Source of the DNA: Candidatus Dojkabacteria bacterium
GTDB taxonomy: Bacteria > Patescibacteriota > Dojkabacteria > SC72 > JAHDCA01
Assembly (NCBI GenBank): GCA_030583845.1
Contig: CP129478.1
Coordinates: 971,686 to 1,035,685, forward strand
DNA: 64,000 nt
Reading direction: 5' to 3'
Shown here piece after piece: positions 13,089-56,334 of the stretch. The notes under the pieces were generated by a model that saw only the letters and a list, made by a program, of their open reading frames with translations, did not search any database and was not told the DNA's origin. The position numbers and the translations under genes are program-made. Positions within the stretch are counted from its first letter, which is position 1. Each line of letters starts with the position of its first letter.

Positions 13089-14063
13089 ATGCAAAACCAT
13101 AAGCGTTTATTGAAACTTGTTCAAAATATTCTAGTGGTAGCTCTCTTTGTCGGATCGATTTATCTTATAGCTATCAACCTAAATCTGCAGACGCTCATAG
13201 AGAAATCAGGTGAGATAAAGTTTTGGCCTACACTAGCGGTAATTTTGCTCTCAATCTTAGGGTCAGTTGTTAGAGGCTTAAGGCTGAGAGACCTTACCCT
13301 TATCCAGCTTCCACTAGGTAGCATGACTAATATCTCAATTGTTCATTCATATCTTGCCACAATGCTTCCGTTTAGACTTGGTGAGCTAGCTTTGCCTGCT
13401 CTGCTCAAGAAATTTGCAAATTACAGCCTTAGCAAGGCTTTTGGAAAGCTCGTATTCATAAGGATAATAGACACAGGTGTAATACTGATTGTTGGCGTTC
13501 TGCTTACCTTAGTGATATCTGGGCTTGGGTATATGAAAGTGGCATCAATGGTTACTTTTCTAGGGATTTTATTCTTTCTAGCAATTCTCAAGAGTGATTT
13601 TGCACTTAATATTATGCGGAAAATTCCAGGAATACGTAAAGGGAGCGGCATACTTGAGGCTGTAAACGAGGTCACTCACAAGCAGTACTTCCAAACATTG
13701 ATAACAACAGCGGCTGGGTGGGTAATCACGTATGCGGCTACATATTATGCTTTTCAGGCAGTTGGGCTTGATATATCACTTACCGTGCTTTTGGTTGCGG
13801 CAACGGTACTTACTCTTTCAGCAGTTATCCCGATCCAGACCCCGGGAATGGTAGGAACATACGAGGCGATTATGCTATTTGTATTCTCTCTCTTTGCAAT
13901 CAAAGGTGAAGGGATACTTGAAGCCATCGTGCTATCGCACATACTATCTATATCGATAAACACAGTCATAGCTGCGGTTTCTGGAGGGATACTCTTCGTC
14001 CAAGGGAAGAAGCTGGATAGAACGGCCGTTAGCCCAATAACACTCGAAGGTCTACAAGAATAG
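13089..14063 (+). CDS. Polytopic membrane protein (UPF0104 / flippase-like, tentative)
   Basis: 324 aa, about 8 TM; family assignment from general shape only. Confidence 0.5.
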   Translation: MQNHKRLLKLVQNILVVALFVGSIYLIAINLNLQTLIEKSGEIKFWPTLAVILLSILGSVVRGLRLRDLTLIQLPLGSMTNISIVHSYLATMLPFRLGELALPALLKKFANYSLSKAFGKLVFIRIIDTGVILIVGVLLTLVISGLGYMKVASMVTFLGILFFLAILKSDFALNIMRKIPGIRKGSGILEAVNEVTHKQYFQTLITTAAGWVITYAATYYAFQAVGLDISLTVLLVAATVLTLSAVIPIQTPGMVGTYEAIMLFVFSLFAIKGEGILEAIVLSHILSISINTVIAAVSGGILFVQGKKLDRTAVSPITLEGLQE

Positions 14064-14362
14064 GCTCATCAGCATTTTTGAAGCTTTCGCTACTTGCTGA
14101 GTTAGGTTTGATAAAACCTCGTGGTAATGATACTCCTCCAATAAAGGAGGCTCGAAATCCAAAGTAAGCTGATCCTTACTCATCTGGTTTTCATTTACAT
14201 TTTATTGCATTCAGACAGAAAGACTGACTAGCAGTGAAATTGAATTTCTATCTAGGGCAGGAAAGTGAGGCTGTAAGCCTCACAAAATTGAATGCGGGGA
14301 TATTATACCATAATCTTCGTGGTTTTTCACCTATCGCTGTAATTTTAGAATCTAACTGTAAG

Positions 14363-14638
14363 TTACAGAGGAAGATTCCCTAGAAAATATGCTTTAGCAC
14401 CGAATGTCTTAACCCCCGTAAATTCCTTGGGGTCGATCTCGCCAACAGCATGTTTCCACTCATAACCACTCAGTATCCAAATTACCTGAGTCGAGGTAAT
14501 GCCTAGTTTCTCACAAGCAGCCTGAATAACTTGTGAGTAGGTCGGTACAGGTCTGTAGCTTGAAAAAAGTTTATCTGGTGTGGTCGGTGTAGAGGAACTA
14601 ACTGTCTCACTATAATCCTGATCATACTCACCTACCAA
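14363..14638 (-). CDS. Hypothetical protein (weak ORF inside an 880-bp low-coding region)
   Basis: 91-aa ORF, no motif. Confidence 0.25.
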   Translation of the reverse strand: MVGEYDQDYSETVSSSTPTTPDKLFSSYRPVPTYSQVIQAACEKLGITSTQVIWILSGYEWKHAVGEIDPKEFTGVKTFGAKAYFLGNLPL

Positions 14639-14943
14639 ATCATTTTCTCGTCACAAATCAGGTTAACCCAAACAGCCATCTTATTTTGATTTTCATTTAG
14701 CGGATATCTACTTTCACTACTCATTTATTGCGGTCTTAAAAACTTAATCGTTAGCAACTCATGACTTACTTTACACCAACCTGCCCTTGATTAGCTACCT
14801 CCACGTTGCGATAGGTGAAAGGTTTCATACATTTAAAATCTAATGGAGGTTAAATACGCGGTTACGTCTCCCTCGTTGAGGCCAATTTTCAAATATTGCA
14901 ATGATCCAATATAATATAGCACGCTTAATATGATCATACTGAC

Positions 14944-42325: not shown

Positions 42326-42871
42326 ATGTTTCACCAAGTTCCTGTACTAAAACACGACCAGCTTATGGAAAGCTTCGAAACAGGCTCTGCCCGCCAATAT
42401 TTAGCAAAATATTTCTTAAAACTTCCCCTCGAATCTCTTGAGACGACAGGACAATATCTGTATGAAGTAGCGCTGAGGCTTCCTGATGCTGTTCACGCTC
42501 TATCCCTACAGCCATATGACAAGAGGACAGGTATTGGAGTAATGGGTGGAAAGGAGACTGATCTGCGGTCGCTACTTTATGATCATTATTGTAGCAACCA
42601 TCTATCGAGATCGCTAATTGTAACGATGCAGCAGGCACACGAGGCAGGGTTGAATATGTATGCACCAATATTTCCCATTAATGGCCAAGATTCTGCGGGA
42701 CTTTGCCGCATAGATACATATAATGAATGGGATTTCGCATTTTTAAACCCATTTTCGCCTGTGGTGATGAACCGACCACAGTTAGGTGAGGGGATGAGGT
42801 GGGAGCGACAAGAGGGGGTTGAGCTGTTCCCGATAGCCTATCCATTCAATGATCTGGCAATGACGAGGTAA
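42326..42871 (+). CDS. Hypothetical protein
   Basis: 181-aa ORF, no motif. Confidence 0.45.
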   Translation: MFHQVPVLKHDQLMESFETGSARQYLAKYFLKLPLESLETTGQYLYEVALRLPDAVHALSLQPYDKRTGIGVMGGKETDLRSLLYDHYCSNHLSRSLIVTMQQAHEAGLNMYAPIFPINGQDSAGLCRIDTYNEWDFAFLNPFSPVVMNRPQLGEGMRWERQEGVELFPIAYPFNDLAMTR

Positions 42872-42944: not shown

Positions 42945-43022
42945 GGTGGATGTAGCTCAATTGGTTAGAGCATCGGTTTGTGGAACCGAGGGTTGTGGGT
43001 TCAAGCCCCATCTTCCACCCCA
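42945..43022 (+). tRNA. tRNA-His (anticodon GTG) with genomically encoded G-1
   Basis: G-1 + GTGGATG acceptor, anticodon loop TTGTGGA, T-arm GTGGGTTCAAGCCCCAT, discriminator C73 pairing with G-1, and CCA. Confidence 0.85.
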
Positions 43023-43050
43023 TTCGTGACTCTTGGCAGAATTGAAGATA
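43015..43050. repeat. Direct repeat copy 1, overlapping the last 8 nt of tRNA-His; putative attL-like islet boundary
   Basis: 'ccaccccattcgtgactcttggcagaattgaagata' versus 47671-47702 'ccacattcgtgactcttagcgaattcgaatat' (13-mer exact core, about 26/32 overall). Confidence 0.5.
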
Positions 43051-43295
43051 GAATCAAACGGTTTTATCCAGTCATAACGCAGTTTTCCATCCTTGATAGA
43101 TAGGTTCTGAAGTGTAAGTGTGATAAGTTGTCGTTTCTGATCAGGTTCAGAACCCATAAATAGCTCATGACTTCTTGAAGCTAGGTTTAATAGCATTGCA
43201 GAGGTAATATAGTACTCTTCGTCTGCTTGGCTTATTAAGTTAAGCCTGTCTTCATTGTTTTTTCTGTTTAGTCCATTTAGCTCGTAAATTGTCAT
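43023..43295 (-). CDS. Hypothetical protein (islet-internal). The ORF-track model runs 66 nt into tRNA-His, so the true C-terminus is uncertain.
   Basis: 112-aa ORF whose last 22 codons are the tRNA-His complement. Confidence 0.25.
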
Positions 43296-43386: not shown

Positions 43387-45678
43387 CTAAAGTGATACCT
43401 CAACTTCTTGTCGGATAATCTGTTCAAGTTGAGCTGAGTTTTCTAAAATTGATTGTACATCAATATTCTCACTTGGGTCACTGACTGATAATATCCAACA
43501 ATAATTTTGCTCTATCGTTGTATCGTCATCTTCTGTTGTTAACTGAGTTATAACCTCAATCTTGCCTGCTGGAAATTTATTTCTAAAAGTCTCTGAATGT
43601 ATTAAGGAGAATTTCTTCCCATTTACTTTCTTTCTCCCTTTTAATTTGGATAAGTAAGATATTTTTTCTTCACCTGACGGTAAGACCTTAATTAAACGAA
43701 CATTCGCTTCAAGGCTGTGGCGATTATAACTATCTACATAAGCATTATTCACTGGTGGGTTGTAAACGCATGTAAATGTTATTTGAAGTTTTTTATCAAT
43801 TAATTCATTCGGGATATCTACTAAAACTCTATGCTTTTTGAAAGAACCTTTAATTGTGTCTGCATAGAGAATATTTACGTTTGATGAATTTGAAGATAAT
43901 AGCTTTGCAATATTGGGTGTACCCATACCTAAGAATTTTTGCATATTCCCCGTAGGCTGTTGTATAGGCATCTCAGCAGAGTGTATAAGCATCGCTTTTA
44001 TTGTATTAGCATAGTTATTTGTTAATTCTAGGTGCTCGTTGATGTCTGAATTATGTAAATAATCTAATGCAAATATGGCTTCTCTAGTGACTAAAGGTGT
44101 GCTGAAGCTTGTTCCGTTGTCTTTTTCAATTTTGTCCCCTACAATGCCCTCAACACCGTAGTTTCTCTTTGACTGTTCAAGATTATTATCCATACAAATC
44201 TCACCACCATGTGCGACTAACTCTGGCTTAATAATGTAATCTCTATTATGCCCTCCTCGACTGAATGGTGAAGGGGCACCATTCACTGGGCTCCACGTTG
44301 TATCATCAGTAATTTCAGCTACGGAACCGACTGTTAGCATATTAATTGCATCACTTGGGGATGCTATTTCAATACCATTTGAGCTGATAATTTCATCATA
44401 AGTCGAATATCCCAAATAGGAATCGTGGTTTCCTGAGCTTCCTATAAATAAGACATCATATTTTCTCGAATAATAATCTATTAATACAGTTATTGGATGT
44501 ATTTTCCTGCTCTCAATGGGTAATTTATTATTAATGGATAAATTATAGATTTTAACTTTTGGATATTTACCTAATGACTTTTCTATAACATCGGCTAAAG
44601 AAAATAAATCTTCTATTTCTGGTGCACCGTCAGCTCCTTGGTATAAAACCTGTAAGTTCAGAATTTGAGCAATTGGAGTTAGAGTTGAACTAGTTAATAG
44701 CGAAGTAATATTTCCCCCATATAATATTCTGCTTGCAACAAAAGTGCCGTGCGATGTATCTTCCAATTTGTGACTGGGAATATATTTCTCAGTATGAAAT
44801 ACTGATGAACTGATAGCTTTAGAATTAATACCACTATCTATCAAGCCGATTATTTCATCTGTTTGAGGGGGAGTTATGCTTATTGAGTTAATATCGATTG
44901 AAGGTAAGCTTCTACTTGCCGTCATGGCTCCAAGAGGGTATATGTATGCTATATCATCCAATTTTGCGTCAGAAAGCATAGCCTCGACTTGAGACTTCGT
45001 AATTGATGCTAAAAAGTACATTTGATTATTTATAAAAAATTTCGCATCTACTTTCTGCAAGTCGTCACTATCTAATTTTTGTGCAATTGCATTAAAAAGC
45101 ACATCGTATTGTTCAAAGGGTATATATGAAGCCATCTCAATAATACATTCGATTTTTTGATTAGGAATTTGGGATAATTTCTGAAACAAGTGCGTATCAA
45201 TTCTTTCTGTTATTTTCCTGGAATAAACGCTTGCACCTGTGAATGCATATACTTCTCTGAATGCATTTCTATCAATTGTTCTAACATCATCTAATTTCTC
45301 TTTCGCTTTAATGTATGATGCTTCCTCTAGTGATTTTTTCAGAGTTGTTAAGGACGGCAATTCAGCACTTATTATGATTTTATTATCGGTGGACGACGAT
45401 ACTATCCGAATATTATTCATATCCCACAGTCTATGAGGTTTGCTTGTTTTCGATGCTGCTTTTTCATCAAGATTAACTTCAATATACCTTCGACTGGTAA
45501 TGGATGGTTCAGATTCGATACTACTATTAACAGCACTTGTTATTGTGTTCAAACGGTTTATATATCCTTCCTCTGTTATATAGTCATCGTTTTCCCAATG
45601 AGTTTCCCAGAAATCGCTCCCGTGCGCTTGTTTCGCTTCTTTAGTTGCTTTGTTTTTTAAGGTGTAAAGAATTTCCAT
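43387..45678 (-). CDS. Cytoplasmic subtilisin-like (S8) serine peptidase; IetS-like candidate
   Basis: Catalytic triad motifs 'IGLIDSGIN' (Asp), 'HGTFVASRI' (His) and 'GTSFSTPLV' (Ser). No signal peptide, and a large N-terminal non-protease region of about 270 aa. Confidence 0.8.
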   Translation of the reverse strand: MEILYTLKNKATKEAKQAHGSDFWETHWENDDYITEEGYINRLNTITSAVNSSIESEPSITSRRYIEVNLDEKAASKTSKPHRLWDMNNIRIVSSSTDNKIIISAELPSLTTLKKSLEEASYIKAKEKLDDVRTIDRNAFREVYAFTGASVYSRKITERIDTHLFQKLSQIPNQKIECIIEMASYIPFEQYDVLFNAIAQKLDSDDLQKVDAKFFINNQMYFLASITKSQVEAMLSDAKLDDIAYIYPLGAMTASRSLPSIDINSISITPPQTDEIIGLIDSGINSKAISSSVFHTEKYIPSHKLEDTSHGTFVASRILYGGNITSLLTSSTLTPIAQILNLQVLYQGADGAPEIEDLFSLADVIEKSLGKYPKVKIYNLSINNKLPIESRKIHPITVLIDYYSRKYDVLFIGSSGNHDSYLGYSTYDEIISSNGIEIASPSDAINMLTVGSVAEITDDTTWSPVNGAPSPFSRGGHNRDYIIKPELVAHGGEICMDNNLEQSKRNYGVEGIVGDKIEKDNGTSFSTPLVTREAIFALDYLHNSDINEHLELTNNYANTIKAMLIHSAEMPIQQPTGNMQKFLGMGTPNIAKLLSSNSSNVNILYADTIKGSFKKHRVLVDIPNELIDKKLQITFTCVYNPPVNNAYVDSYNRHSLEANVRLIKVLPSGEEKISYLSKLKGRKKVNGKKFSLIHSETFRNKFPAGKIEVITQLTTEDDDTTIEQNYCWILSVSDPSENIDVQSILENSAQLEQIIRQEVEVSL

Positions 45679-45684
45679 GTTATC

Positions 45685-46800
45685 TTATGATTTTATATTA
45701 TCAATGAGAGTTGTGTATGGAATACCTGTGCTTTCGGATATTTGTTGTTTTGTAAATCCTAAATTTGTTAATTCTTGAGCTATTTTGTAAGCATCATTTT
45801 TGTTCAGTATATTTTCCATCTGCAATACTAAAAAGAGTTCTTTTAGCGAGATTATTGTAATATTTTCACTATTTTCTGCTAGTGCTAGTTTTCGTTTAAT
45901 TCTTAAAGAGATTTGTTGTATTGCTGAGCCACTTAGCCCATCGCTATATTTAACGAGTAGTTTAAGAGGTAAGTCGTTAGTACTATTCGATAAGTATGTT
46001 TGAAATAACTGTCGTCTCTCTGATATAAGTGGTAATTTTAACTCTAACCGTGTTTCAAATCTTCTCCAGAGTGCTTTATCTAAGAGTGAGTCGTGGTTTG
46101 TCGCTCCAATTAATATCGAGGATTTAGGGAAGTTGTCTATATTTTGTAGAAGTACTGTCACGACTCTTTTTAATTCTCCAAGCTCTGATGAATCATCTCT
46201 GTGTTTAGCTATTGTATCAATTTCATCCAGAAAGATTATAACATTCTCGTTTTTCGCTATTTCAAATATGGAACGAATATTCTTACCTGTTTTACCTAAG
46301 TACGAGGAAACTATTTCGTCTAATCTTACTAATATTAAAGGAAGATTTAACTCGTTAGCTATTGCATTCGCAAGAATTGTCTTTCCTGTGCCTGGTGCTC
46401 CATAAAGTAATATTGAATTAGAAGGGTAAATGTTCTCTTTTTCAAGCTTGTCACGTGCTTTCCACTCTTGAAGCCAGCTATTAATAACTTTGTGAGTAAA
46501 CTTGTCTAAAGTTACATTTGAAATAGAGATTTTTGGTGTGTTACGTTCATATAGATTCTCGTTTTTATCAATTATAATGTTGGCTCTTGTTTTTTGTCCT
46601 GAGAAACTATCTAGGAGCATCATTTCTGAGCGTATCTTTTCCAAACGTTTAACTATTTTATAATGGCCCTTTGCTTTCGCTTCTTCAATTTCCTGAATTA
46701 TCATTTTATTGACAATATTAATATTGTTCTCGGAAGCTGCTTTAATAAATTTTTCTACGAAATCAACTTTAAAGGACATTTCCGTATTTGCATAATACAT
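45685..46800 (-). CDS. AAA+ ATPase (classic AAA clade); IetA-like candidate
   Basis: 'LLYGAPGTGKT', 'IIFLDEIDTI' and 'ILIGATNHDSLLDKALWRRFE'. It is 7 nt upstream of, and co-oriented with, the S8 peptidase. Confidence 0.8.
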   Translation of the reverse strand: MYYANTEMSFKVDFVEKFIKAASENNINIVNKMIIQEIEEAKAKGHYKIVKRLEKIRSEMMLLDSFSGQKTRANIIIDKNENLYERNTPKISISNVTLDKFTHKVINSWLQEWKARDKLEKENIYPSNSILLYGAPGTGKTILANAIANELNLPLILVRLDEIVSSYLGKTGKNIRSIFEIAKNENVIIFLDEIDTIAKHRDDSSELGELKRVVTVLLQNIDNFPKSSILIGATNHDSLLDKALWRRFETRLELKLPLISERRQLFQTYLSNSTNDLPLKLLVKYSDGLSGSAIQQISLRIKRKLALAENSENITIISLKELFLVLQMENILNKNDAYKIAQELTNLGFTKQQISESTGIPYTTLIDNIKS

Positions 46801-46972: not shown

Positions 46973-47617
46973 TTAGCTGATAAATTCGACAATAACCTTA
47001 TTAACCTCTTCTAGAACTTTTGGTTGATACTGGTACTTATGCTCCATTTCAGGAATCTGACACCATTCTTTTGGCGCATTTGCTTTATCAAAGATCTTTC
47101 TGGTTACCGACATTGGAACCTTCTCATCTTCTTCACCAACAACAAATAAAACTGGGCAGGTAACATTCTGAATATAATCAATTGCATTATATTCTTGGGC
47201 ATCCTCAATAAACGAAAAGGGAATACTGAGCTCACCAAACTTTGAAGAAGTAACTTTGCGATAACCTGTTTCTTTCCACTCCTTATACTTTCCAGCTAGG
47301 TCATACTCACTTCCAACCTGATAAGGACTTACAATTAAGCCAAGTTTCTTCGGAGGGAATTCAGTTGCTAGGAGAGTTGCAATTATTCCTCCCATAGAGA
47401 ACCCTAGAATTATGAGTTCTTTGCTTTCTATCGCATTGAGAGTTGCTCTTGCAGTTGCGATGGTTTCTGAAAAACTATACTTGCTCATTTTATCAGGGAT
47501 GTGAGGCCATGCAATCTTAGTCACTATGTGACCAGTGGCTTGAAGCTCTTCTCCCAATTCTTTGAAAGTGACTTCTTCTGGATAACCGGTGAACCCCGGT
47601 ATAATTAATATGTCCAT
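46973..47617 (-). CDS. Alpha/beta-hydrolase (esterase) family protein
   Basis: Nucleophile elbow 'GFSMGG'. Confidence 0.65.
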   Translation of the reverse strand: MDILIIPGFTGYPEEVTFKELGEELQATGHIVTKIAWPHIPDKMSKYSFSETIATARATLNAIESKELIILGFSMGGIIATLLATEFPPKKLGLIVSPYQVGSEYDLAGKYKEWKETGYRKVTSSKFGELSIPFSFIEDAQEYNAIDYIQNVTCPVLFVVGEEDEKVPMSVTRKIFDKANAPKEWCQIPEMEHKYQYQPKVLEEVNKVIVEFIS

Positions 47618-47670: not shown

Positions 47671-47702
47671 ACCACATTCGTGACTCTTAGCGAATTCGAA
47701 TA
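47671..47702. repeat. Direct repeat copy 2; putative attR-like islet boundary
   Basis: See copy 1. Confidence 0.5.
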
Positions 47703-47812: not shown

Positions 47813-48013
47813 CTACACACCCTCAAAAAGCGTCTCAACAAAGTTAAGAATCAAACCCATCGTTTTATCGGTAAGTGATCGCCTCTCGAGGATTTTGGGA
47901 GGGGTATTTAATGACTTAACAACCTCATCTCCAATATGCTTTCTCTCTGTAAATAGATATTCATCAATAATTTCTTGAACTTTAGATTCGTTAAGATCAT
48001 TTTCTGCACACAT
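47813..48013 (-). CDS. Small hypothetical protein
   Basis: 66-aa ORF; no motif. Confidence 0.3.
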   Translation of the reverse strand: MCAENDLNESKVQEIIDEYLFTERKHIGDEVVKSLNTPPKILERRSLTDKTMGLILNFVETLFEGV

Positions 48014-48230: not shown

Positions 48231-49802
48231 TTATAAAAAGTACTGACTCATATATTGCCTCAATGAATCATCAACTATATATACATATGTTCCGTTAATA
48301 CCACGAGTGAGTAGAGTTGTATATATGTTCTTTATGTATGCTTCTAATTCTGCTGGATCAGAAATTGCTCTCTTTCCATTGAAGTCGAGGTATTTTGATT
48401 TATCAACAACCACTTTATGTTTGTTTTTGTCGTAAGAAATCTCGGGTCCAATTATTACACCTGCATAATTCAGATCATAGCCCTGAATCGTGTGAATACA
48501 CCCAATTTCATTTACTGCATTAGGTGAATTAACCCAATCTTCTGTGACACTATTCCACTTAAGCCGTGTGCCGTCAATTTCAATATCATAATCGATCTCA
48601 TTGTTTCCTTTGGTCTTCCATTCCCAGGCATATCCTGCGAGTATCCTTGAAAGACTGTAATCATAATCCTTTTCTTTGATTGCCAAGACCATATCTTTTA
48701 TATTATTAAAGAGTTTGAATTCATAGGTATAGAATTTATTTGGATACGGATTGGAGCAGTTTAAAATATCCCTTATATATTCTATATAGTCCATTCCTCC
48801 ATTGACTCTCATCTGAGAAGTTAATTTGTGGTTTACAAAGGAAATATTGTCTAATGCGTTATATTTAATGTCAGCTGGCTTTACTGACTGATACTTGTCA
48901 TAAAATAGCACTTGATGCTTTGATGATTGCAGGATCCAGTCTAATTGTGTAGCAGAGTCTTTCTCAAGTCCTAAAGATGCAGAGATCTTATCGAAATCTC
49001 TATAGTTTGTTAGGTTTACCCGTCTTTGTAGCCGATGGGCTTCGTCAACAATCAAGATATCGTACTTTTTCCTTACTACATCATTAGGACCAATTACCAT
49101 ACCTGGCGTTAGACCCTTAATATTTCTAAAGACGCGCTTAAGTGTTTTACGAAGCGATGTCATTGGAATAACAAGACCTATCTCTAAGTCTTTAGACCAT
49201 TTCTTCATGCTTAATGCTTTTACTAGATAGGTGGCTACAATTGTCTTCCCCGTTCCTGGCTCACCGGATACAAGATGGGGAATTCTTTCCCCAAATTTAA
49301 TACTGGACATTATCTTATCAACGACGTCTAGCTGATCTTGCGAGAGGGCTTTGTACGGAGAATATTTAAACAAATCACTATTTTGAATTTGAACAAGATC
49401 ATTATCGACTACTTTTAACTTTTGAAGTTCTTTCCAAATAGTCTCAAATTTAGCTTGATAACGCTCTCTATCGTAATAATTTGACTCCTGTATTCCAAAA
49501 TTAGCATTTTGTAATAGGTATTTACCATCGCCGGACATATATCTAATCAAGGAGGATTCTATGTCAAGCGTAGCAGACTTGTTATATTCATCATCTGCAA
49601 TTATATACATTGAGTTTAGCTTAGCCCTGTCTGCCTTCTCGAAATGCTGGCTAGCCCGTCTATATGCTGCTGTAGTTTCTCCAATATAGGCTTCCTTACC
49701 GTCTTCAAGAATATACACTATTGGCCAATTCTCACCGTATCGATAATCCCTTACATTTGTAAATTGATCCTTCCTGTAATTAAATTTCTTGATCTCGTAC
49801 AT
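48231..49802 (-). CDS. GIY-YIG nuclease domain fused to a DUF2075-type P-loop ATPase/helicase-like domain
   Basis: N-terminal 'PIVYILEDGKEAYIGETT...YRRASQH' (GIY-YIG). Walker A 'GEPGTGKT' and Walker B 'ILIVDEAHRLQ', with overall shape like DUF2075 proteins. Confidence 0.65.
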   Translation of the reverse strand: MYEIKKFNYRKDQFTNVRDYRYGENWPIVYILEDGKEAYIGETTAAYRRASQHFEKADRAKLNSMYIIADDEYNKSATLDIESSLIRYMSGDGKYLLQNANFGIQESNYYDRERYQAKFETIWKELQKLKVVDNDLVQIQNSDLFKYSPYKALSQDQLDVVDKIMSSIKFGERIPHLVSGEPGTGKTIVATYLVKALSMKKWSKDLEIGLVIPMTSLRKTLKRVFRNIKGLTPGMVIGPNDVVRKKYDILIVDEAHRLQRRVNLTNYRDFDKISASLGLEKDSATQLDWILQSSKHQVLFYDKYQSVKPADIKYNALDNISFVNHKLTSQMRVNGGMDYIEYIRDILNCSNPYPNKFYTYEFKLFNNIKDMVLAIKEKDYDYSLSRILAGYAWEWKTKGNNEIDYDIEIDGTRLKWNSVTEDWVNSPNAVNEIGCIHTIQGYDLNYAGVIIGPEISYDKNKHKVVVDKSKYLDFNGKRAISDPAELEAYIKNIYTTLLTRGINGTYVYIVDDSLRQYMSQYFL

Positions 49803-49804
49803 AG

Positions 49805-50131
49805 CTATTTCTTGAATTTGGTATATTTGGTGGCATTACCTTTAGCTTTCTCAACAGGATATTTTTCTTCACTTATTGCTAATTTATCTGAAGCTACTTT
49901 TTCAAGGTCAATATCTAGTGAATTTGCAAACAGAAGAAGATAGGTATAGAGGTCTGCTACTTCTGATTTAACATCCTCTAGGTCATATTTATCCGTCCAC
50001 TGGAAGCATTCTAATAACTCTCCTGCTTCGATAGATAATGATTTGGCAAGATTTTGCGGGGTATGGAACTGTTTCCAATCTCTTGCATCCCGAAAATTTA
50101 TGAGTCTTTCTAGTAATTTTGAGTGTTTCAT
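49805..50131 (-). CDS. MazG-like nucleoside triphosphate pyrophosphohydrolase (small, YpjD-like)
   Basis: 'LSIEAGELLECFQW' and 'EVADLYTYLLLFANSLDIDLE' (EExxE / ExxD helices of the MazG fold). Its stop is 3 nt from the next gene's start. Confidence 0.7.
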   Translation of the reverse strand: MKHSKLLERLINFRDARDWKQFHTPQNLAKSLSIEAGELLECFQWTDKYDLEDVKSEVADLYTYLLLFANSLDIDLEKVASDKLAISEEKYPVEKAKGNATKYTKFKK

Positions 50132-50266: not shown

Positions 50267-50770
50267 GTGGTCTTTTCACTCATAGGCCTTTATACTACCC
50301 CAATGCGAATCAACCTAAAAAAATACTACATAGAAATCCAATCGCCCACACTCTGCACCCTCATAGGCAGACTAAATGGCTTTGCCAACCCAGAAAGCGT
50401 CAAAGCTGGAGCATTTTACCCTTTCCTCTACCTCCGTTTTCCAGACCATCCAAATAACCCCACATGGATAAATCACGAGAAGATTCATTTTCGCCAGCAG
50501 TTGGAGTTACTTTTCATATTCTATTTCATCTTTATCGCGGCAGAGCGAATCTATTACAGATACTTCCGAAAATTATCACCATTAGACTCATATCTTGCAT
50601 CTGCATTTGAGCAGGAGTGCTACATCAATCAGAGTGATACACTGTATCTGAGTAGGCGAAGGCCGTATGCATTTCTGAAGTATATGCGTGAGAAGAGAAC
50701 TATTAGGTTTGTTGATAGAGAGGGGAATATAACGATCACAAATGACGAGCTTATCGCAATCAATAGTTAA
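50267..50770 (+). CDS. Hypothetical protein with an HExxH motif ('HEKIH'); its 3' end is copy 1 of an 89-bp repeat
   Basis: 167-aa ORF; C-terminal 'YLSRRRPYAFLKYMREKRTIRF' recurs at 58549-58637. Confidence 0.45.
   Translation: MVFSLIGLYTTPMRINLKKYYIEIQSPTLCTLIGRLNGFANPESVKAGAFYPFLYLRFPDHPNNPTWINHEKIHFRQQLELLFIFYFIFIAAERIYYRYFRKLSPLDSYLASAFEQECYINQSDTLYLSRRRPYAFLKYMREKRTIRFVDREGNITITNDELIAINS
50642..50730. repeat. 89-bp direct repeat, copy 1 (3' end of CDS 50267-50770)
   Basis: About 90% identical to 58549-58637, including a 31-nt exact block 'tatgcatttctgaagtatatgcgtgagaaga'. Confidence 0.85.
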
Positions 50771-53418: not shown

Positions 53419-54447
53419 ATGAAGATTATATTTTTTGTAGTTAAAGGATTGGAAGATATTGCAGAAAACGAACTGATGCAATTTGGCGTAGAGATAGAAA
53501 AGGTTGATACGAAATAAATTGTTGGTTCTTTCGCAGGTGACTTACATGATTTGTGCAATTTAAAAACTGTTGATGATTTAGCATTACTCTTTGATTCCTT
53601 TGAGGTAGGTAAGAATACGGTGATAGAAGATATTATAGAGCACGTCAGCAAAGCAAACATCAAACAATATATTCAAGTAATTGAGCAGCTAAGAGAGCTA
53701 TCAAGTAACTTCTCAATAACGATAAGCAAATACAAATCCACTGCAGATACATATGAACTGAAAGCGCAATTAGCCAGTCAACTAAGCTCTGAGCTAGATA
53801 TGCAGTTCACAGAGAAAGAGCATGAGAATTTTGACGTGCGAATAAGCATAGGGCAACAGAGGGTAGTCTTGGCTATACGCTTGTTTGCAAAACCTTTGCA
53901 TGATCGAGAATACGTTACACATAATTATTTAGGTTCATTAAAACCGACCATATCAGCATCGCTTTATAAAATGGCTTGCTCAAAAATAAAAGATAAAGAT
54001 AAAGTACAATTAGTTGATAATTTTTGCGGTAGTGGCACGATACTATGTGAGTCATTTCTACAAGGTGCAGAGGTCTCGGGTGGTGATGTGAGCCCGGAAG
54101 CTGTGAAGATGGCAGGGGAGAATTTGAAAGCTGTTGGAGCTAAAGACTTTACTCTTAAGATAGAATCTGCCTTTTCCACAGATTGGGATGAGGCGCAGTT
54201 TAACCTAGCTATTTCAAATCCACCATGGGGTGAACAACTTGAGGTTGCAAGTATGACTGAACTTTATGAAAAATCAGTAAGAGAGTATAAAAGAATATTA
54301 ACCGATGACGCTGTACTTTGCTTTATTGTCAAGAAACCTGACCTCCTAATAAAGTTTATAAAATCTCATTTCCCTAAGCATAGAATAGAAAGCCGCACTA
54401 TTAGTTTTAACGGCCAGCAGCCAACTATTGTTATTGCTTATCTATAA
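53419..54447 (+). pseudogene. THUMP/RlmL-like SAM-dependent RNA (m2G-type) methyltransferase interrupted by a single in-frame TAA at 53515-53517. The intact downstream ORF starts at TTG 53551.
   Basis: Upstream mini-ORF 'MKIIFFVVKGLEDIAENELMQFGVEIEKVDTK*' is in the same frame and continues 'IVGSFAGDLHDL...'. Downstream are 'DNFCGSGTIL' (motif I) and 'SNPPWG' (motif IV). Confidence 0.55.
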
Positions 54448-55402
54448 TATTTGTAAACTAATCGCTATGAAATATGACAACGCTACTATACGAGATAATA
54501 TTGTCAGGAGTATCGAAACAAATTACCAAATAGTTGTCGATACTGTGAGCTTTATCCCAATTGGTGAAGAAAGTTATTCCTACAAAATTAAAGGTAAGAA
54601 TAGTCAGACGTTTTTCGCCAAGTACTGTGCCAAGAAAGAAATCATTGCAAGTATTGATATAGTAAACGAGCTATTACTAAAATTAAGCAATTTTGAATTT
54701 GTAGTTCCTCCAATTCAAATAAGAGGTAAAACCTCATGCTCAGTATTGGAAGGTAAACTCTACCTGTTTCCATTTATTAATGGCACAAATATTAGCTTAG
54801 GTAATCATGATTGGGATAAAACCCTCTATGAAAGGATTTTCGACATAATGATTAAAATTCACAATTCAACTCACATTATTAATCTTAATTTACCTAAAGA
54901 AACATTTGAGAATAACTTTATTGATAGGCTTAATCTATTAGTGTCTGTAGTAGGCAACAATCAAAATTATGACAAACAAACAAACGAATTGTTGATTATG
55001 AACGAAACACTAATTCGTAAAATTATAAATCAACACACCTTATTAGGAGCGATGTATAAGAAAAAGAATTTGAGATTTGTTCTGACTCACGGTGATATTA
55101 CGGGTTTGAATATAATTAAAACAACAAAAGGGATGAAGTTAATTGATTGGGACGGTGCAATGTTTACTCCTTCCGAAAGAGACCTTAACTTTCTTTCATC
55201 AAATAAACATTTTTCAATAAAGAAATATATTACAGAAACTAAAAGTAAACATTACCCCGACTTATTAGACTACTACGGACAGCAATGGTCACTAAATAGT
55301 ATTTTAGAGAATTTCGAAGCGTTACTTTCTTCGAATATGACTAATATAAATAAAGATGACTGTATCGATGAAATTAACGAATATTTGTCATACTATAAAT
55401 AA
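54428..55402 (+). CDS. Aminoglycoside/choline-kinase-like phosphotransferase (APH fold)
   Basis: Catalytic 'LTHGDITGLN' (HGDxxxxN) and 'LIDWDGA' (DxD metal site). Confidence 0.6.
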   Translation: MLLLIYNICKLIAMKYDNATIRDNIVRSIETNYQIVVDTVSFIPIGEESYSYKIKGKNSQTFFAKYCAKKEIIASIDIVNELLLKLSNFEFVVPPIQIRGKTSCSVLEGKLYLFPFINGTNISLGNHDWDKTLYERIFDIMIKIHNSTHIINLNLPKETFENNFIDRLNLLVSVVGNNQNYDKQTNELLIMNETLIRKIINQHTLLGAMYKKKNLRFVLTHGDITGLNIIKTTKGMKLIDWDGAMFTPSERDLNFLSSNKHFSIKKYITETKSKHYPDLLDYYGQQWSLNSILENFEALLSSNMTNINKDDCIDEINEYLSYYK

Positions 55403-55563: not shown

Positions 55564-56334
55564 ATGAACGACAAAACCATGAAAGGACTTAACAGATCAA
55601 ATCTCGCACTATCAGCACTTCATTTCGCACAAGCATTAGCTGTGCTCTTTCTATCGAGTGCTGACCAAGGAGTCGTCCCGATTACGACCAATTACTTAAA
55701 ATTTGATCCAGCTACAAGCGCTTTAGCACCTGCAACTACCGAGCTATTTACAGTGAATCTGGCATGGTTTGTTGTTATATTTTTCTTGATCTGCTCATTA
55801 GCACATCTGAGTATTGCAACTGTATATCGCAAGAGATATGAATCAGACTTAAAGGTAGGGATAAACAAAGCAAGATGGATAGAGTACTCATTAAGCGCAA
55901 GCGTGATGATGCTGGCAATAAGCTTCCTGACCGGAATCTACGATATTTCCAGCCTAATAATGATCTTCACCCTTGTAGCTTTAATGAACCTGCTTGGACT
56001 TGCAATGGAGCTGATCAACAAAGGGAAGGAGAAGACCGACTGGTATACATACTGGCTGGGCTGTATAGCGGGGATTGTGCCCTGGATAGTGTTTGGGGTG
56101 TATGTCTTTGGCGCTAACAAGTATGGCGGTGGCAATATTCCTGACTTTGTGTACTGGATCTATGTCTCGATATTTATTTTCTTCAATTGCTTTGCGGTGA
56201 ATATGTTCTTGCAGTACAAGAAGATAGGGCCATGGAGGGATTATCTATACGGCGAGCGTGTTTATATGATTCTGAGTTTGGTAGCTAAGTCGCTACTCGC
56301 GTGGCAGGTGTTTGCTGGAGTTCTGAGACCTTAG
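55564..56334 (+). CDS. Heliorhodopsin
   Basis: 7-TM, 256 aa, with near-identical blocks to heliorhodopsin 48C12 as I recall it: 'RWIEYSLSASVMM', 'WLGCIAGIVPWI', 'FVYWIYVSIFIFFN', 'LQYKKIGPWRDYLYGERVYMILSLVAKSLLAWQVF'. The Schiff-base Lys lies in 'SLVAKS'. Confidence 0.85.
   Translation: MNDKTMKGLNRSNLALSALHFAQALAVLFLSSADQGVVPITTNYLKFDPATSALAPATTELFTVNLAWFVVIFFLICSLAHLSIATVYRKRYESDLKVGINKARWIEYSLSASVMMLAISFLTGIYDISSLIMIFTLVALMNLLGLAMELINKGKEKTDWYTYWLGCIAGIVPWIVFGVYVFGANKYGGGNIPDFVYWIYVSIFIFFNCFAVNMFLQYKKIGPWRDYLYGERVYMILSLVAKSLLAWQVFAGVLRP

What the first reader, a model, noticed from the sequence alone, without database searches (positions are those of the whole stretch)
43387..46800. Cytoplasmic AAA+ ATPase plus S8 subtilase pair (IetAS-like candidate defence module) beside tRNA-His
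Two co-oriented genes 7 nt apart encode a classic-clade AAA ATPase (371 aa) followed by a 763-aa subtilisin-like protease. The protease has an intact Asp/His/Ser triad, a 270-aa non-catalytic N-terminal region and no signal peptide. This matches the ATPase+subtilase architecture reported, as far as I recall, as the IetAS anti-phage/anti-plasmid system (Gao et al. 2020). The pair sits in a tRNA-proximal islet and not in a housekeeping context. The host looks like a small-genome organism, so an intracellular ATPase-gated protease here could be a divergent or undescribed variant. A secreted nutritional protease is unlikely given the missing signal peptide.
Basis: partly seen in the sequence, partly recalled or inferred. 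Interest (0 to 1): 0.7.

Follow-up and report, generated by a model that had tools for sequence, protein, structure and literature searches.

The report
IetAS protease–ATPase defence pair in CPR bacterium
The two genes are a real but sequence-divergent copy of the known IetAS toxin–antitoxin/anti-phage pair (an AAA+ ATPase that restrains an intracellular subtilisin-like protease), carried on a small decayed mobile islet inserted at tRNA-His in an ultra-small Candidatus Dojkabacteria genome; it is a new member of a known kind, not a new system.

Summary
On the minus strand, a 371-aa AAA+ gene (45685-46800) lies 6 nt upstream of a 763-aa S8 protease gene (43387-45678), 364 nt from tRNA-His. Both proteins match the PADLOC IetA and IetS models over nearly their full length (E 1e-93 and 1e-76) and score higher than the founding pTiC58 pair does. 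Both stay below NCBIfam's narrow equivalog cut-offs. The ATPase motifs, pore loop and Asp/His/Ser triad are intact, and no signal peptide or upstream start is possible. The host is Candidatus Dojkabacteria (CPR). The nearest relatives are 28-35% identical, mostly from CPR genomes, and 8 of 9 full-length ones have IetA directly upstream. The pair sits in a 4.65-kb low-GC islet bounded by a 21-nt direct repeat. One repeat copy overlaps the tRNA-His 3' end, next to a remnant of a serine-recombinase gene. Structure prediction adds one lead: the 270-residue IetS N-terminus folds like subtilase propeptides, so IetS resembles an uncleaved zymogen. IetA also carries a conserved C-terminal tail that is probably a helix-turn-helix. 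The mechanism of the family is unsolved in the literature I could search. Verdict: new member of a known kind, moderate-to-low interest.

The parts
45685..46800 (-). ietA: 371-aa classic-clade AAA+ ATPase, the presumed antitoxin/regulator
   Evidence: ORF. PADLOC IetA E 1.2e-93. NCBIfam IteA_antiphage 282 bits, below the 510-bit equivalog cut-off. Closest solved relatives are Cdc48/p97/VAT D2 domains, E about 1e-50.
46378..46401 (-). IetA Walker A, G134-APGTGKT
   Evidence: Motif scan; conserved in all aligned IetA relatives.
46294..46302 (-). IetA pore-loop-1 Y167-L-G, within the conserved stretch SSYLGKTGKNI
   Evidence: An aromatic-hydrophobic-Gly loop at this position is the substrate-threading loop of classic-clade AAA unfoldases (established knowledge).
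46222..46239 (-). IetA Walker B, IIFLDE (188-193). Sensor-1 N235 and R246/R247 follow downstream.
45688..45813 (-). IetA C-terminal tail (about residues 330-371) with the conserved motif SxSTGIPYTTLxDNIK, a probable helix-turn-helix
   Evidence: Conserved in all CPR-clade IetA sequences and recognisable in L020, L103 and L105; absent from pTiC58 IetA. The window's tail scores only weakly (Raf1_HTH E 0.006). The homologous tail of L105 reaches HTH_psq at 24.0 bits (cut-off 20.4), and L020's hits Xre-like antitoxin HTH at E 0.002.
43387..45678 (-). ietS: 763-aa intracellular S8 subtilase, the presumed toxin/effector
   Evidence: ORF. PADLOC IetS E 1.4e-76. NCBIfam IteS_antiphage 210 bits, below the 900-bit cut-off. 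AF2 model has mean pLDDT 87.5 and pTM 0.90.
44869..45678 (-). IetS N-terminal non-catalytic region (residues 1-270): a Lys-rich N-terminal tail, a long helix, then two beta-alpha-beta-beta-alpha-beta units (about 63-151 and 176-248) with a subtilase-propeptide (I9-like) fold
43963..44856 (-). IetS S8 catalytic domain (residues 275-572), with D281 (44836-44838), H310 (44749-44751), N417 (44428-44430) and S524 (44107-44109)
43474..43887 (-). IetS C-terminal beta-sandwich domain (about residues 598-735)
42946..43022 (+). tRNA-His(GTG), the integration target
   Evidence: ARAGORN.
43017..43037 (+). att-like direct repeat, copy 1 (ACCCCATTCGTGACTCTTGGC), overlapping the last 6 nt of tRNA-His
   Evidence: Two copies with at most 2 mismatches, against none in 100 shuffles.
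47671..47691 (+). att-like direct repeat, copy 2 (2 mismatches; about 28 of 36 identical when extended), marking the far end of a 4.65-kb islet
42957..43295 (-). 112-aa ORF: the C-terminal remnant of a large serine recombinase gene, with its 3' end running antisense through tRNA-His
   Evidence: Homologues are 44-85% identical, all short, and from CPR sources. In L107 the homologous segment follows Resolvase and Recombinase/Zn_ribbon_recom fragments in shifted frames, and likewise overlaps a tRNA (Gln) antisense.
46973..47617 (-). 214-aa alpha/beta-hydrolase gene. It is a co-oriented passenger inside the islet and not part of the conserved module.
   Evidence: Pfam hydrolase hits; not found next to IetAS in any relative.

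Best explanation
This is a two-gene IetAS-family module. IetS is a cytoplasmic subtilisin-like protease that acts as a toxin/effector. IetA is a hexameric-type AAA+ ATPase that keeps IetS harmless for as long as IetA is present and hydrolysing ATP. When IetA is lost or blocked, for example by a phage protein or after loss of the element, the protease is released, cleaves cellular proteins, and the cell stops growing or dies. That outcome is abortive infection or post-segregational killing. The family assignment, the intact catalytic machinery of both proteins, the intracellular location, the conserved ietA-then-ietS operon and the mobile-islet context are shown here. The toxin/antitoxin roles, the abortive-infection phenotype and the requirement for protease activity are taken from experiments on homologues. 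The following is my own inference. IetS is built like an uncleaved subtilase zymogen, with its N-terminal propeptide-like domains as the built-in inhibitor or chaperone. IetA, which has an intact substrate-threading pore loop, acts on IetS as an unfoldase or remodeller, holding or resetting it in the inhibited state. IetA's conserved C-terminal HTH-like tail would give operon autoregulation, as in type II antitoxins. The module is cargo of a decayed tRNA-His-targeting serine-recombinase islet in a Candidatus Dojkabacteria genome.
Confidence: 0.8

Rival explanations
1. The pair serves mainly as an addiction (post-segregational killing) module that stabilises the islet or the larger low-GC island in the chromosome, as IetAS does for pTiC58 and SgiAT does for SGI1. 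In this reading it is not primarily an anti-phage defence. This differs from the best explanation in biological role, not in biochemistry, and the two roles can coexist.
For: The pair is cargo of a small integrative islet bounded by direct repeats, with a recombinase remnant. Characterised homologues stabilise a plasmid and a genomic island. The islet has lost its recombinase but kept the intact pair, as expected if losing the pair is lethal.
Against: Homologues of the better-matching subtype are documented anti-phage systems. A sister islet with the same recombinase family carries an R-M system, so the cargo slot looks defence-themed. Relatives also occur on predicted viral contigs.
Confidence: 0.3
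2. The ATPase and the protease form a cooperative degradation machine. IetA unfolds target proteins, for example phage proteins, and feeds them to IetS, by analogy with proteasome-activating nucleotidases or FtsH. There would be no toxin-antitoxin relationship.
For: IetA's nearest relatives with known function are protein unfoldases that work with proteases: PAN, Cdc48 and FtsH. It has an intact pore loop.
Against: Subtilases are monomeric, open-cleft endopeptidases, not chambered proteases that need an unfoldase (established knowledge). Genetics in three homologous systems show that the ATPase neutralises a toxic protease.
Confidence: 0.07
3. The genes are an inactive relic of an old insertion, or the protease is a housekeeping or secreted nutritional enzyme that merely happens to lie next to an AAA gene.
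For: The carrier islet is decayed, with a truncated recombinase. No expression data exist, and the promoter scan is uninformative.
Against: Both ORFs are full length with every catalytic motif intact. There is no signal peptide. Distribution is patchy and horizontally transferred, with conserved pairing. No housekeeping family matches either protein.
Confidence: 0.05

Closest known systems
IetAS anti-phage system (Gao et al. 2020 type; PADLOC IetA PDLC02196 / IetS PDLC02197; NCBIfam IteA NF042959 / IteS NF042956)
   Same: Two genes in the order ietA then ietS. Sizes match (371 and 763 aa here; model lengths 367-374 and 747-749). Profile matches cover nearly the full length, including the non-catalytic N-terminus of IetS and the C-terminal tail of IetA. 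The ATPase motifs and the protease triad are intact.
   Different: Scores are about half or less of the NCBIfam equivalog cut-offs. The host is a CPR bacterium. The nearest relatives form a small, mostly CPR set at 28-35% identity. Function is untested.
IetA/IetS of Agrobacterium pTiC58 (Yamamoto et al. 2009), the founding toxin-antitoxin pair
   Same: AAA ATPase upstream of an S8 protease, abutting and co-oriented (L022). Both hit the same PADLOC families.
   Different: Only 30% identity over 253 aa (IetA) and 22% over 291 aa (IetS). pTiC58 IetA is shorter (328 aa) and lacks the C-terminal HTH-like tail. pTiC58 IetS is longer (836 aa) and best matches a different IetS sub-model, PDLC02198. 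It is plasmid-borne.
SgiAT (S026/S025) of Salmonella Genomic Island 1
   Same: An IetAS homologue carried by an integrated mobile island, where it promotes island maintenance (PMC5006074). This parallels the islet context here.
   Different: SgiAT is close to the pTiC58 type (50% and 36% identity to it, according to that paper). SGI1 integrates with a tyrosine integrase at trmE (my own knowledge), not at a tRNA gene with a serine recombinase.
Mycoplasma mycoides TA132/133 (AAA-ATPase / subtilisin-like protease TA module)
   Same: Chromosomal, in a minimal-genome bacterium. Gene sizes are nearly the same (353 and 757 aa), the antitoxin is upstream, and flanking direct repeats are reported. The antitoxin is essential while the toxin is present (PMC8562856).
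   Different: The host lineage is different (Mollicutes, not CPR).
ietHAS (Liu-DS4), IetAS with an essential SNF2 helicase
   Same: It has the same IetA and IetS core (PMC13069673).
   Different: No SNF2 helicase is attached here. The nearest helicase (48231-49802) is a GIY-YIG/SLFN-g3 (DUF2075) type. It lies outside the repeat-bounded islet and is not conserved with the pair.
Pro-subtilases and Csp germination proteases (ProN-Tk-SP 3afg, pro-subtilisin E 3whi, PCSK9, CspB/CspC); structural analogy only
   Different: Those enzymes are secreted or spore-associated and have a single propeptide. IetS is cytoplasmic, appears to have two such units plus an N-terminal helix and tail, and is partnered with an AAA+ ATPase.
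Stand-alone Y4kK_N + S8 proteins of Bacteroidota (e.g. Ulvibacter antarcticus P0010)
   Same: The S8 and C-terminal regions are homologous (about 29% identity over residues 173-741), and they score strongly on the IetS model (303 bits).
   Different: They carry a Y4kK_N domain (PF27160), which the precomputed annotation does not report for the window protein. No IetA lies within 5-7 kb.

Membership tests
IetAS system (broad family as modelled by PADLOC) | An AAA+ ATPase that matches an IetA profile over most of its length | tested here: met
   PDLC02196 E 1.2e-93, 312.6 bits, residues 15-365 against profile 7-364 of 374. Control: pTiC58 IetA scores 239 bits.
IetAS system (broad family as modelled by PADLOC) | An S8 peptidase that matches an IetS profile, including regions outside the catalytic domain | tested here: met
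   PDLC02197 E 1.4e-76, 256.3 bits, residues 38-663 against profile 41-634 of 749. Control: pTiC58 IetS scores 85.6 bits at best. The IetS profile alone is not specific to the system, because the orphan P0010 scores 303 bits.
IetAS system (broad family as modelled by PADLOC) | The two genes are adjacent and co-oriented, with ietA upstream of ietS | tested here: met
   6-nt gap, both on the minus strand. The same arrangement holds in 8 of 9 full-length relatives.
IetAS system (broad family as modelled by PADLOC) | Catalytically competent protease (Asp/His/Ser) and ATPase (Walker A/B, arginine finger) | tested here: met
   D281/H310/S524 and N417. GAPGTGKT, IIFLDE, N235, R246/R247.
IetAS system (broad family as modelled by PADLOC) | IetS is toxic and IetA neutralises it (toxin-antitoxin behaviour) | not testable with these tools
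   Known only for homologues.
IetAS system (broad family as modelled by PADLOC) | Protection against phage (abortive infection) or against plasmids | not testable with these tools
   Known only for homologues from E. coli and B. cereus. No cultured host or phage exists for this Dojkabacteria lineage.
NCBIfam IteA_antiphage / IteS_antiphage equivalogs (narrow definition) | Whole-protein score at or above the curated equivalog cut-off | tested here: not met
   IteA 282.1 bits against a cut-off of 510; IteS 210.3 bits against 900. It is therefore not an equivalog of the reference proteins, only a distant member of the wider family.
ietHAS (helicase-containing IetAS variant) | An SNF2-family helicase gene within the operon | tested here: not met
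   The gene upstream of ietA is an alpha/beta hydrolase. The nearest helicase is the SLFN-g3/DUF2075 type, beyond the att-like repeat, and it is not conserved.
Y4kK_N-type stand-alone subtilases | An N-terminal Y4kK_N domain (PF27160) and no partner ATPase | tested here: not met
   The precomputed Pfam annotation of the identical protein P0001 lists only PF00082, while P0008-P0011 list PF27160. An IetA partner is present. My local Pfam copy lacks PF27160, so this rests on the precomputed annotation.
Secreted / nutritional subtilases | An N-terminal signal peptide or membrane anchor | tested here: not met
   Maximum KD(19) in the first 50 residues is 0.08, and a stop lies 2 codons upstream of the ATG. 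This is by hydropathy only; SignalP was not available.

The most novel reading that the evidence does not exclude
Two linked ideas are not excluded. (1) IetS-family proteases are covalent zymogens. Their tandem propeptide-like N-terminal domains would be the inhibitory element, and the IetA unfoldase would continually hold or reset them, making an ATP-dependent 'dead-man's switch'. This would give the first mechanistic model for a defence family whose mechanism the literature searched here still calls unknown. (2) In CPR bacteria, such modules may be shuttled as single-cassette cargo by a family of tiny serine-recombinase islets whose recombinase gene ends inside the target tRNA gene (IetAS here, HinfI R-M in L107). 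That would be a simple route by which ultra-small genomes exchange immunity.
Probability: 0.25. Interest if true: 0.55.

Novelty: new member of a known kind. Interest (0 to 1): 0.3.

Why it matters
Any current defence-annotation pipeline (PADLOC, DefenseFinder, PGAP) would already name this pair, so the finding itself is not a discovery. It has three modest points of value. First, it documents an intact abortive-infection/toxin-antitoxin module in a roughly 1-Mb CPR genome. Such organisms have little room for accessory genes, and no paper in the searchable library mentions IetAS together with CPR bacteria. Second, the confident structure model gives a testable lead for a family whose mechanism is unsolved: a zymogen-like protease with propeptide-fold N-terminal domains, paired with a pore-loop-bearing unfoldase that has an HTH-like tail. 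Third, the carrier points to a family of small cargo elements that may move defence genes among CPR lineages: a 4.65-kb repeat-bounded islet at tRNA-His with a serine-recombinase remnant that overlaps the tRNA.

Tried and rejected
1. Empty-site test for the island. The left-flank gene (42326-42871) has no relatives in the metagenome collection. The right-flank heliorhodopsin has 210 relatives, but none is syntenic with the left flank. The result is inconclusive.

2. A third att-like copy at the right edge of the low-GC region (about 55.5 kb). None was found, even allowing 3 mismatches. Only the 43.0-47.7-kb islet has defined borders.

3. Promoter and terminator scan of 42.9-48.3 kb. Counts equal the shuffled expectation, so it is uninformative.

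4. Sequence search of IetS against PDB. There was no hit at E <= 0.001, and no IetAS structure turned up in the literature search.

5. The genome scan with the 13-sequence alignment failed because no block was conserved enough. I repeated it with the 6 closest sequences.

6. The 112-aa ORF against Pfam, PADLOC, PHROGs and phage genomes gave nothing. It was resolved only through homologues and their context.

7. Yamamoto et al. 2009 (PMC2704731) is not in the held library. Its content is cited second-hand.

8. tRNA adjacency as a family trait was rejected. Only one of 11 relative loci has tRNAs nearby, and those lie about 4.4 kb away.

9. The alpha/beta hydrolase and the SLFN-type helicase as third components were rejected, because neither is conserved with the pair.

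10. The local Pfam copy lacks PF27160, so I could not run that domain test myself.
Full report
**1. Observation**

The AAA gene is at 45685-46800 (371 aa) and the S8 gene is at 43387-45678 (763 aa). They are separated by 6 nt. tRNA-His(GTG) is at 42946-43022 on the plus strand, 364 nt beyond the IetS stop codon. GC content falls from about 0.44 to 0.33-0.36 between about 43.0 and 55.5 kb.

Pfam places AAA (PF00004) at residues 130-255 and Peptidase_S8 (PF00082) at residues 275-572. That confirms a non-catalytic N-terminal region of about 270 residues. Neither protein has a hydrophobic N-terminus or a TM-like segment. A stop codon lies two codons upstream of the IetS ATG, so a corrected start with a signal peptide is impossible.

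**2. What it is**

Both proteins match the IetAS defence models:
- IetA matches PADLOC PDLC02196 at E 1.2e-93 over residues 15-365.
- IetS matches PADLOC PDLC02197 at E 1.4e-76 over residues 38-663.
- NCBIfam's best ATPase hit and its only protease hit are IteA_antiphage (282 bits) and IteS_antiphage (210 bits). Both fall well below the equivalog cut-offs of 510 and 900 bits.

As a positive control, I fetched the founding pair from pTiC58: the adjacent 'ATP-binding protein' (328 aa) and 'S8 family peptidase' (836 aa) at 97.9-101.4 kb. That pair scores lower on the same PADLOC models than the window pair does: 239 and 86 bits against 313 and 256. Directly compared, the window proteins are only 30% (IetA, 253 aa) and 22% (IetS, 291 aa) identical to the pTiC58 proteins. 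The pair is therefore a member of the broad IetAS family, nearer to the anti-phage subtype than to the plasmid prototype, and divergent from both.

**3. Catalytic competence**

IetA has all the motifs of an active classic-clade AAA+ ATPase, and they are conserved in the aligned IetA relatives:
- Walker A, GAPGTGKT (134-141)
- Walker B, IIFLDE (188-193)
- a pore-loop-1 Y167-L-G inside the conserved stretch SSYLGKTGKNI
- sensor-1 N235
- R246/R247

Its closest solved relatives are the Cdc48/p97/VAT unfoldase D2 domains, at E about 1e-50. In IetS, D281, H310 and S524 are invariant across a 51-sequence alignment, and N417 is nearly invariant.

**4. Host and relatives**

The identical IetS sequence is annotated in NCBI as from a Candidatus Dojkabacteria MAG, on a 1,036,382-bp contig. 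It also occurs on one Logan contig. The next-best proteins are only 28-35% identical.

In the species-representative genome collection, the full-length relatives come from Parcubacteria, Paceibacterota (two), Saccharimonadia, Shapirobacteria and one unclassified MAG. P0006 is from a 'Patescibacteria group bacterium'.

The 270-residue N-terminal region, searched alone against 1.84 billion representatives, finds just 29 clusters. The region is always at the N-terminus, mostly of proteins of 770-870 aa, and it is never fused to anything else.

**5. Linkage**

An IetA homologue (41-49% identical) lies directly upstream of IetS in L002/L003, L004, L005, L008, L009, L010, L012 and L021. Where genes had been called, the two overlap by 1-4 nt. 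The more distant L020 (Polyangiaceae) and three IMG/VR viral contigs also carry the pair.

There are two kinds of exception:
- The Saccharimonadia locus L011 has no IetA upstream.
- The Bacteroidota-type proteins match only from about residue 155-265 onward and have no IetA nearby. Several of this type (P0008-P0011) are annotated with a Y4kK_N domain.

No other gene of the window's island recurs beside the pair. The pair's GC is below the flank GC in 8 of 8 loci. The conserved, mobile unit is therefore exactly the two genes.

**6. Genomic context**

A 21-nt sequence, ACCCCATTCGTGACTCTTGGC, overlaps the last 6 nt of tRNA-His (43017-43037). It recurs with 2 mismatches at 47671-47691. No shuffle out of 100 gives two matches. 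The repeats bracket a 4.65-kb islet that holds a 112-aa ORF, ietS, ietA and an alpha/beta-hydrolase gene.

The 112-aa ORF (42957-43295, minus strand) runs antisense into the tRNA. Its homologues are all short, 44-85% identical, from CPR sources and mostly on very short contigs. In L107 (a Patescibacteria MAG) the homologous segment is the last piece of a frameshifted large serine recombinase (Resolvase, then Recombinase/Zn-ribbon, then this tail). There it overlaps a tRNA-Gln gene antisense, and the adjacent cargo is a HinfI-type R-M pair.

So the window's IetAS is cargo of a decayed, tRNA-targeting serine-recombinase islet. The low-GC DNA continues to about 55.5 kb with unrelated genes. I could not define its right border or find an empty site.

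**7. Structure-based leads**

- EpiP, PCSK9, CylA and CspC/CspB/CspA

The N-terminal 270 residues, modelled alone (pLDDT 83), match subtilase and sedolisin propeptides: ProN-Tk-SP 8.3, pro-kumamolisin 7.3, PCSK9 prodomain 6.9, Alp1 propeptide 6.7, CspB 6.0, BPN' 5.8, POIA1 5.7 and cucumisin 5.3. These hits are mixed with generic ferredoxin-fold proteins.

The secondary structure suggests two beta-alpha-beta-beta-alpha-beta units, at about residues 63-151 and 176-248, preceded by a long helix and a Lys-rich tail. The first 18 residues are ordered in the full-length model but disordered in the isolated N-terminal model. This hints that the tail packs on the rest of the protein. I could not inspect the coordinates.

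IetA ends in a conserved motif, SxSTGIPYTTLxDNIK, which pTiC58 IetA lacks. The equivalent tail of one relative passes the HTH_psq threshold, and another resembles an Xre-like antitoxin HTH. The window's own tail scores only weakly.

**8. Mechanism**

From experiments on homologues:
- IetS is the toxin and IetA the antitoxin. An ietA mutant could not be constructed, protease activity is required for defence, and the mechanism is described as unknown (PMC13069673).
- Defence is by abortive infection and can be triggered by one phage protein, SPbeta yosG (bioRxiv 10.1101/2022.08.27.505566).
- In a minimal mycoplasma, deleting the ATPase alone is lethal (PMC8562856).
- A homologue stabilises the SGI1 island (PMC5006074).

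My inference is that IetS is a zymogen-like protease whose propeptide-fold domains provide built-in inhibition. IetA, an unfoldase-type ATPase, would hold or reset that state at the expense of ATP. Loss or inhibition of IetA would unleash the protease. The HTH-like tail would autoregulate the operon. None of these steps is shown for this locus.

**9. Verdict**

This is a new, divergent member of a known kind, in an unusual host and on an interesting small carrier. Standard annotation would already flag it, so the surprise to a specialist is limited. I found no report of an IetAS structure or mechanism, and no paper mentioning IetAS together with CPR bacteria, in the searchable library. That is weak negative evidence.

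Noticed in passing
window 42957-43295 (-), 43017-43037, 47671-47691; L107 6767-8297: A family of short, highly conserved ORFs (44-85% identical across CPR lineages) represents the C-terminal tail of a large serine recombinase. The gene's 3' end overlaps a tRNA gene antisense: tRNA-His here and tRNA-Gln in L107. The adjacent cargo differs (IetAS here, HinfI R-M in L107). Most homologues sit on very short contigs, which suggests assembly breaks at a repeated or mobile sequence.
   Followed up: partly
window 48231-50131 (-): A 523-aa protein with a weak N-terminal GIY-YIG match and a strong SLFN-g3/DUF2075 helicase domain (weak PADLOC Nhi/AbiO matches, E about 1e-12). A 108-aa MazG-like pyrophosphatase gene lies immediately upstream of it, separated by 2 nt. 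This could be a second defence module in the same low-GC region.
   Followed up: no
window 47813-48013 (-): A 66-aa ORF matches only the extreme C-terminus of type I restriction R subunits (EcoR124_C, just below the Pfam cut-off). It looks like a gene remnant lying just outside the second att-like repeat.
   Followed up: no
window 53551-55402 (+): An overlapping gene pair. One is a UPF0020/RlmKL-like methyltransferase (PADLOC mad2 E 2e-18; weak EmtA-like 23S rRNA methyltransferase match). The other is an APH(9)-like phosphotransferase. Both are far below curated cut-offs. The pair could be a resistance or modification module at the right end of the low-GC region.
   Followed up: no
window 55564-56334 (+): A full-length heliorhodopsin (NCBIfam HeR, 316 bits against a cut-off of 100) sits at the right edge of the low-GC island in this Dojkabacteria genome. 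It has more than 200 relatives in metagenomes, at up to 69% identity.
   Followed up: partly
window 50267-50770 (+): A 167-aa ORF matches a phage 'protease' PHROG (phrog_15610, E 8e-16) and has no Pfam, PADLOC or NCBIfam match.
   Followed up: no
L006, L013-L018 (Bacteroidota and Ignavibacteriae loci); P0010: Stand-alone S8 proteins of Bacteroidota with no IetA within 5-7 kb. The one tested, P0010 (Y4kK_N plus S8), scores higher on the PADLOC IetS model than genuine IetS proteins do (303 bits). An IetS hit alone is therefore not evidence of an IetAS system, and how these orphans are kept harmless is unexplained.
   Followed up: partly
L011 1265-3490: A Saccharimonadia full-length IetS relative (741 aa, 31% identical) has no IetA gene upstream or elsewhere in the 9.5-kb locus. 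It is the one exception to linkage in the CPR clade.
   Followed up: partly
L002 versus L003, downstream of 12985: Two assemblies of essentially the same Patescibacteria IetAS locus diverge about 2.6 kb downstream of IetS. L003 carries a 520-aa Resolvase-family recombinase (13116-14678) that L002 lacks. An AbiTii-like gene lies just upstream of IetA in both.
   Followed up: no
window 45619-45678 (-), IetS residues 1-20: Relatives share an N-terminal motif, PKxxxxxxxKxGGG, with a nearly invariant glycine. The window protein has AHG instead of GGG. This tail is ordered only in the full-length model, so it may dock on the body of the protein or serve as a handle for IetA.
   Followed up: no
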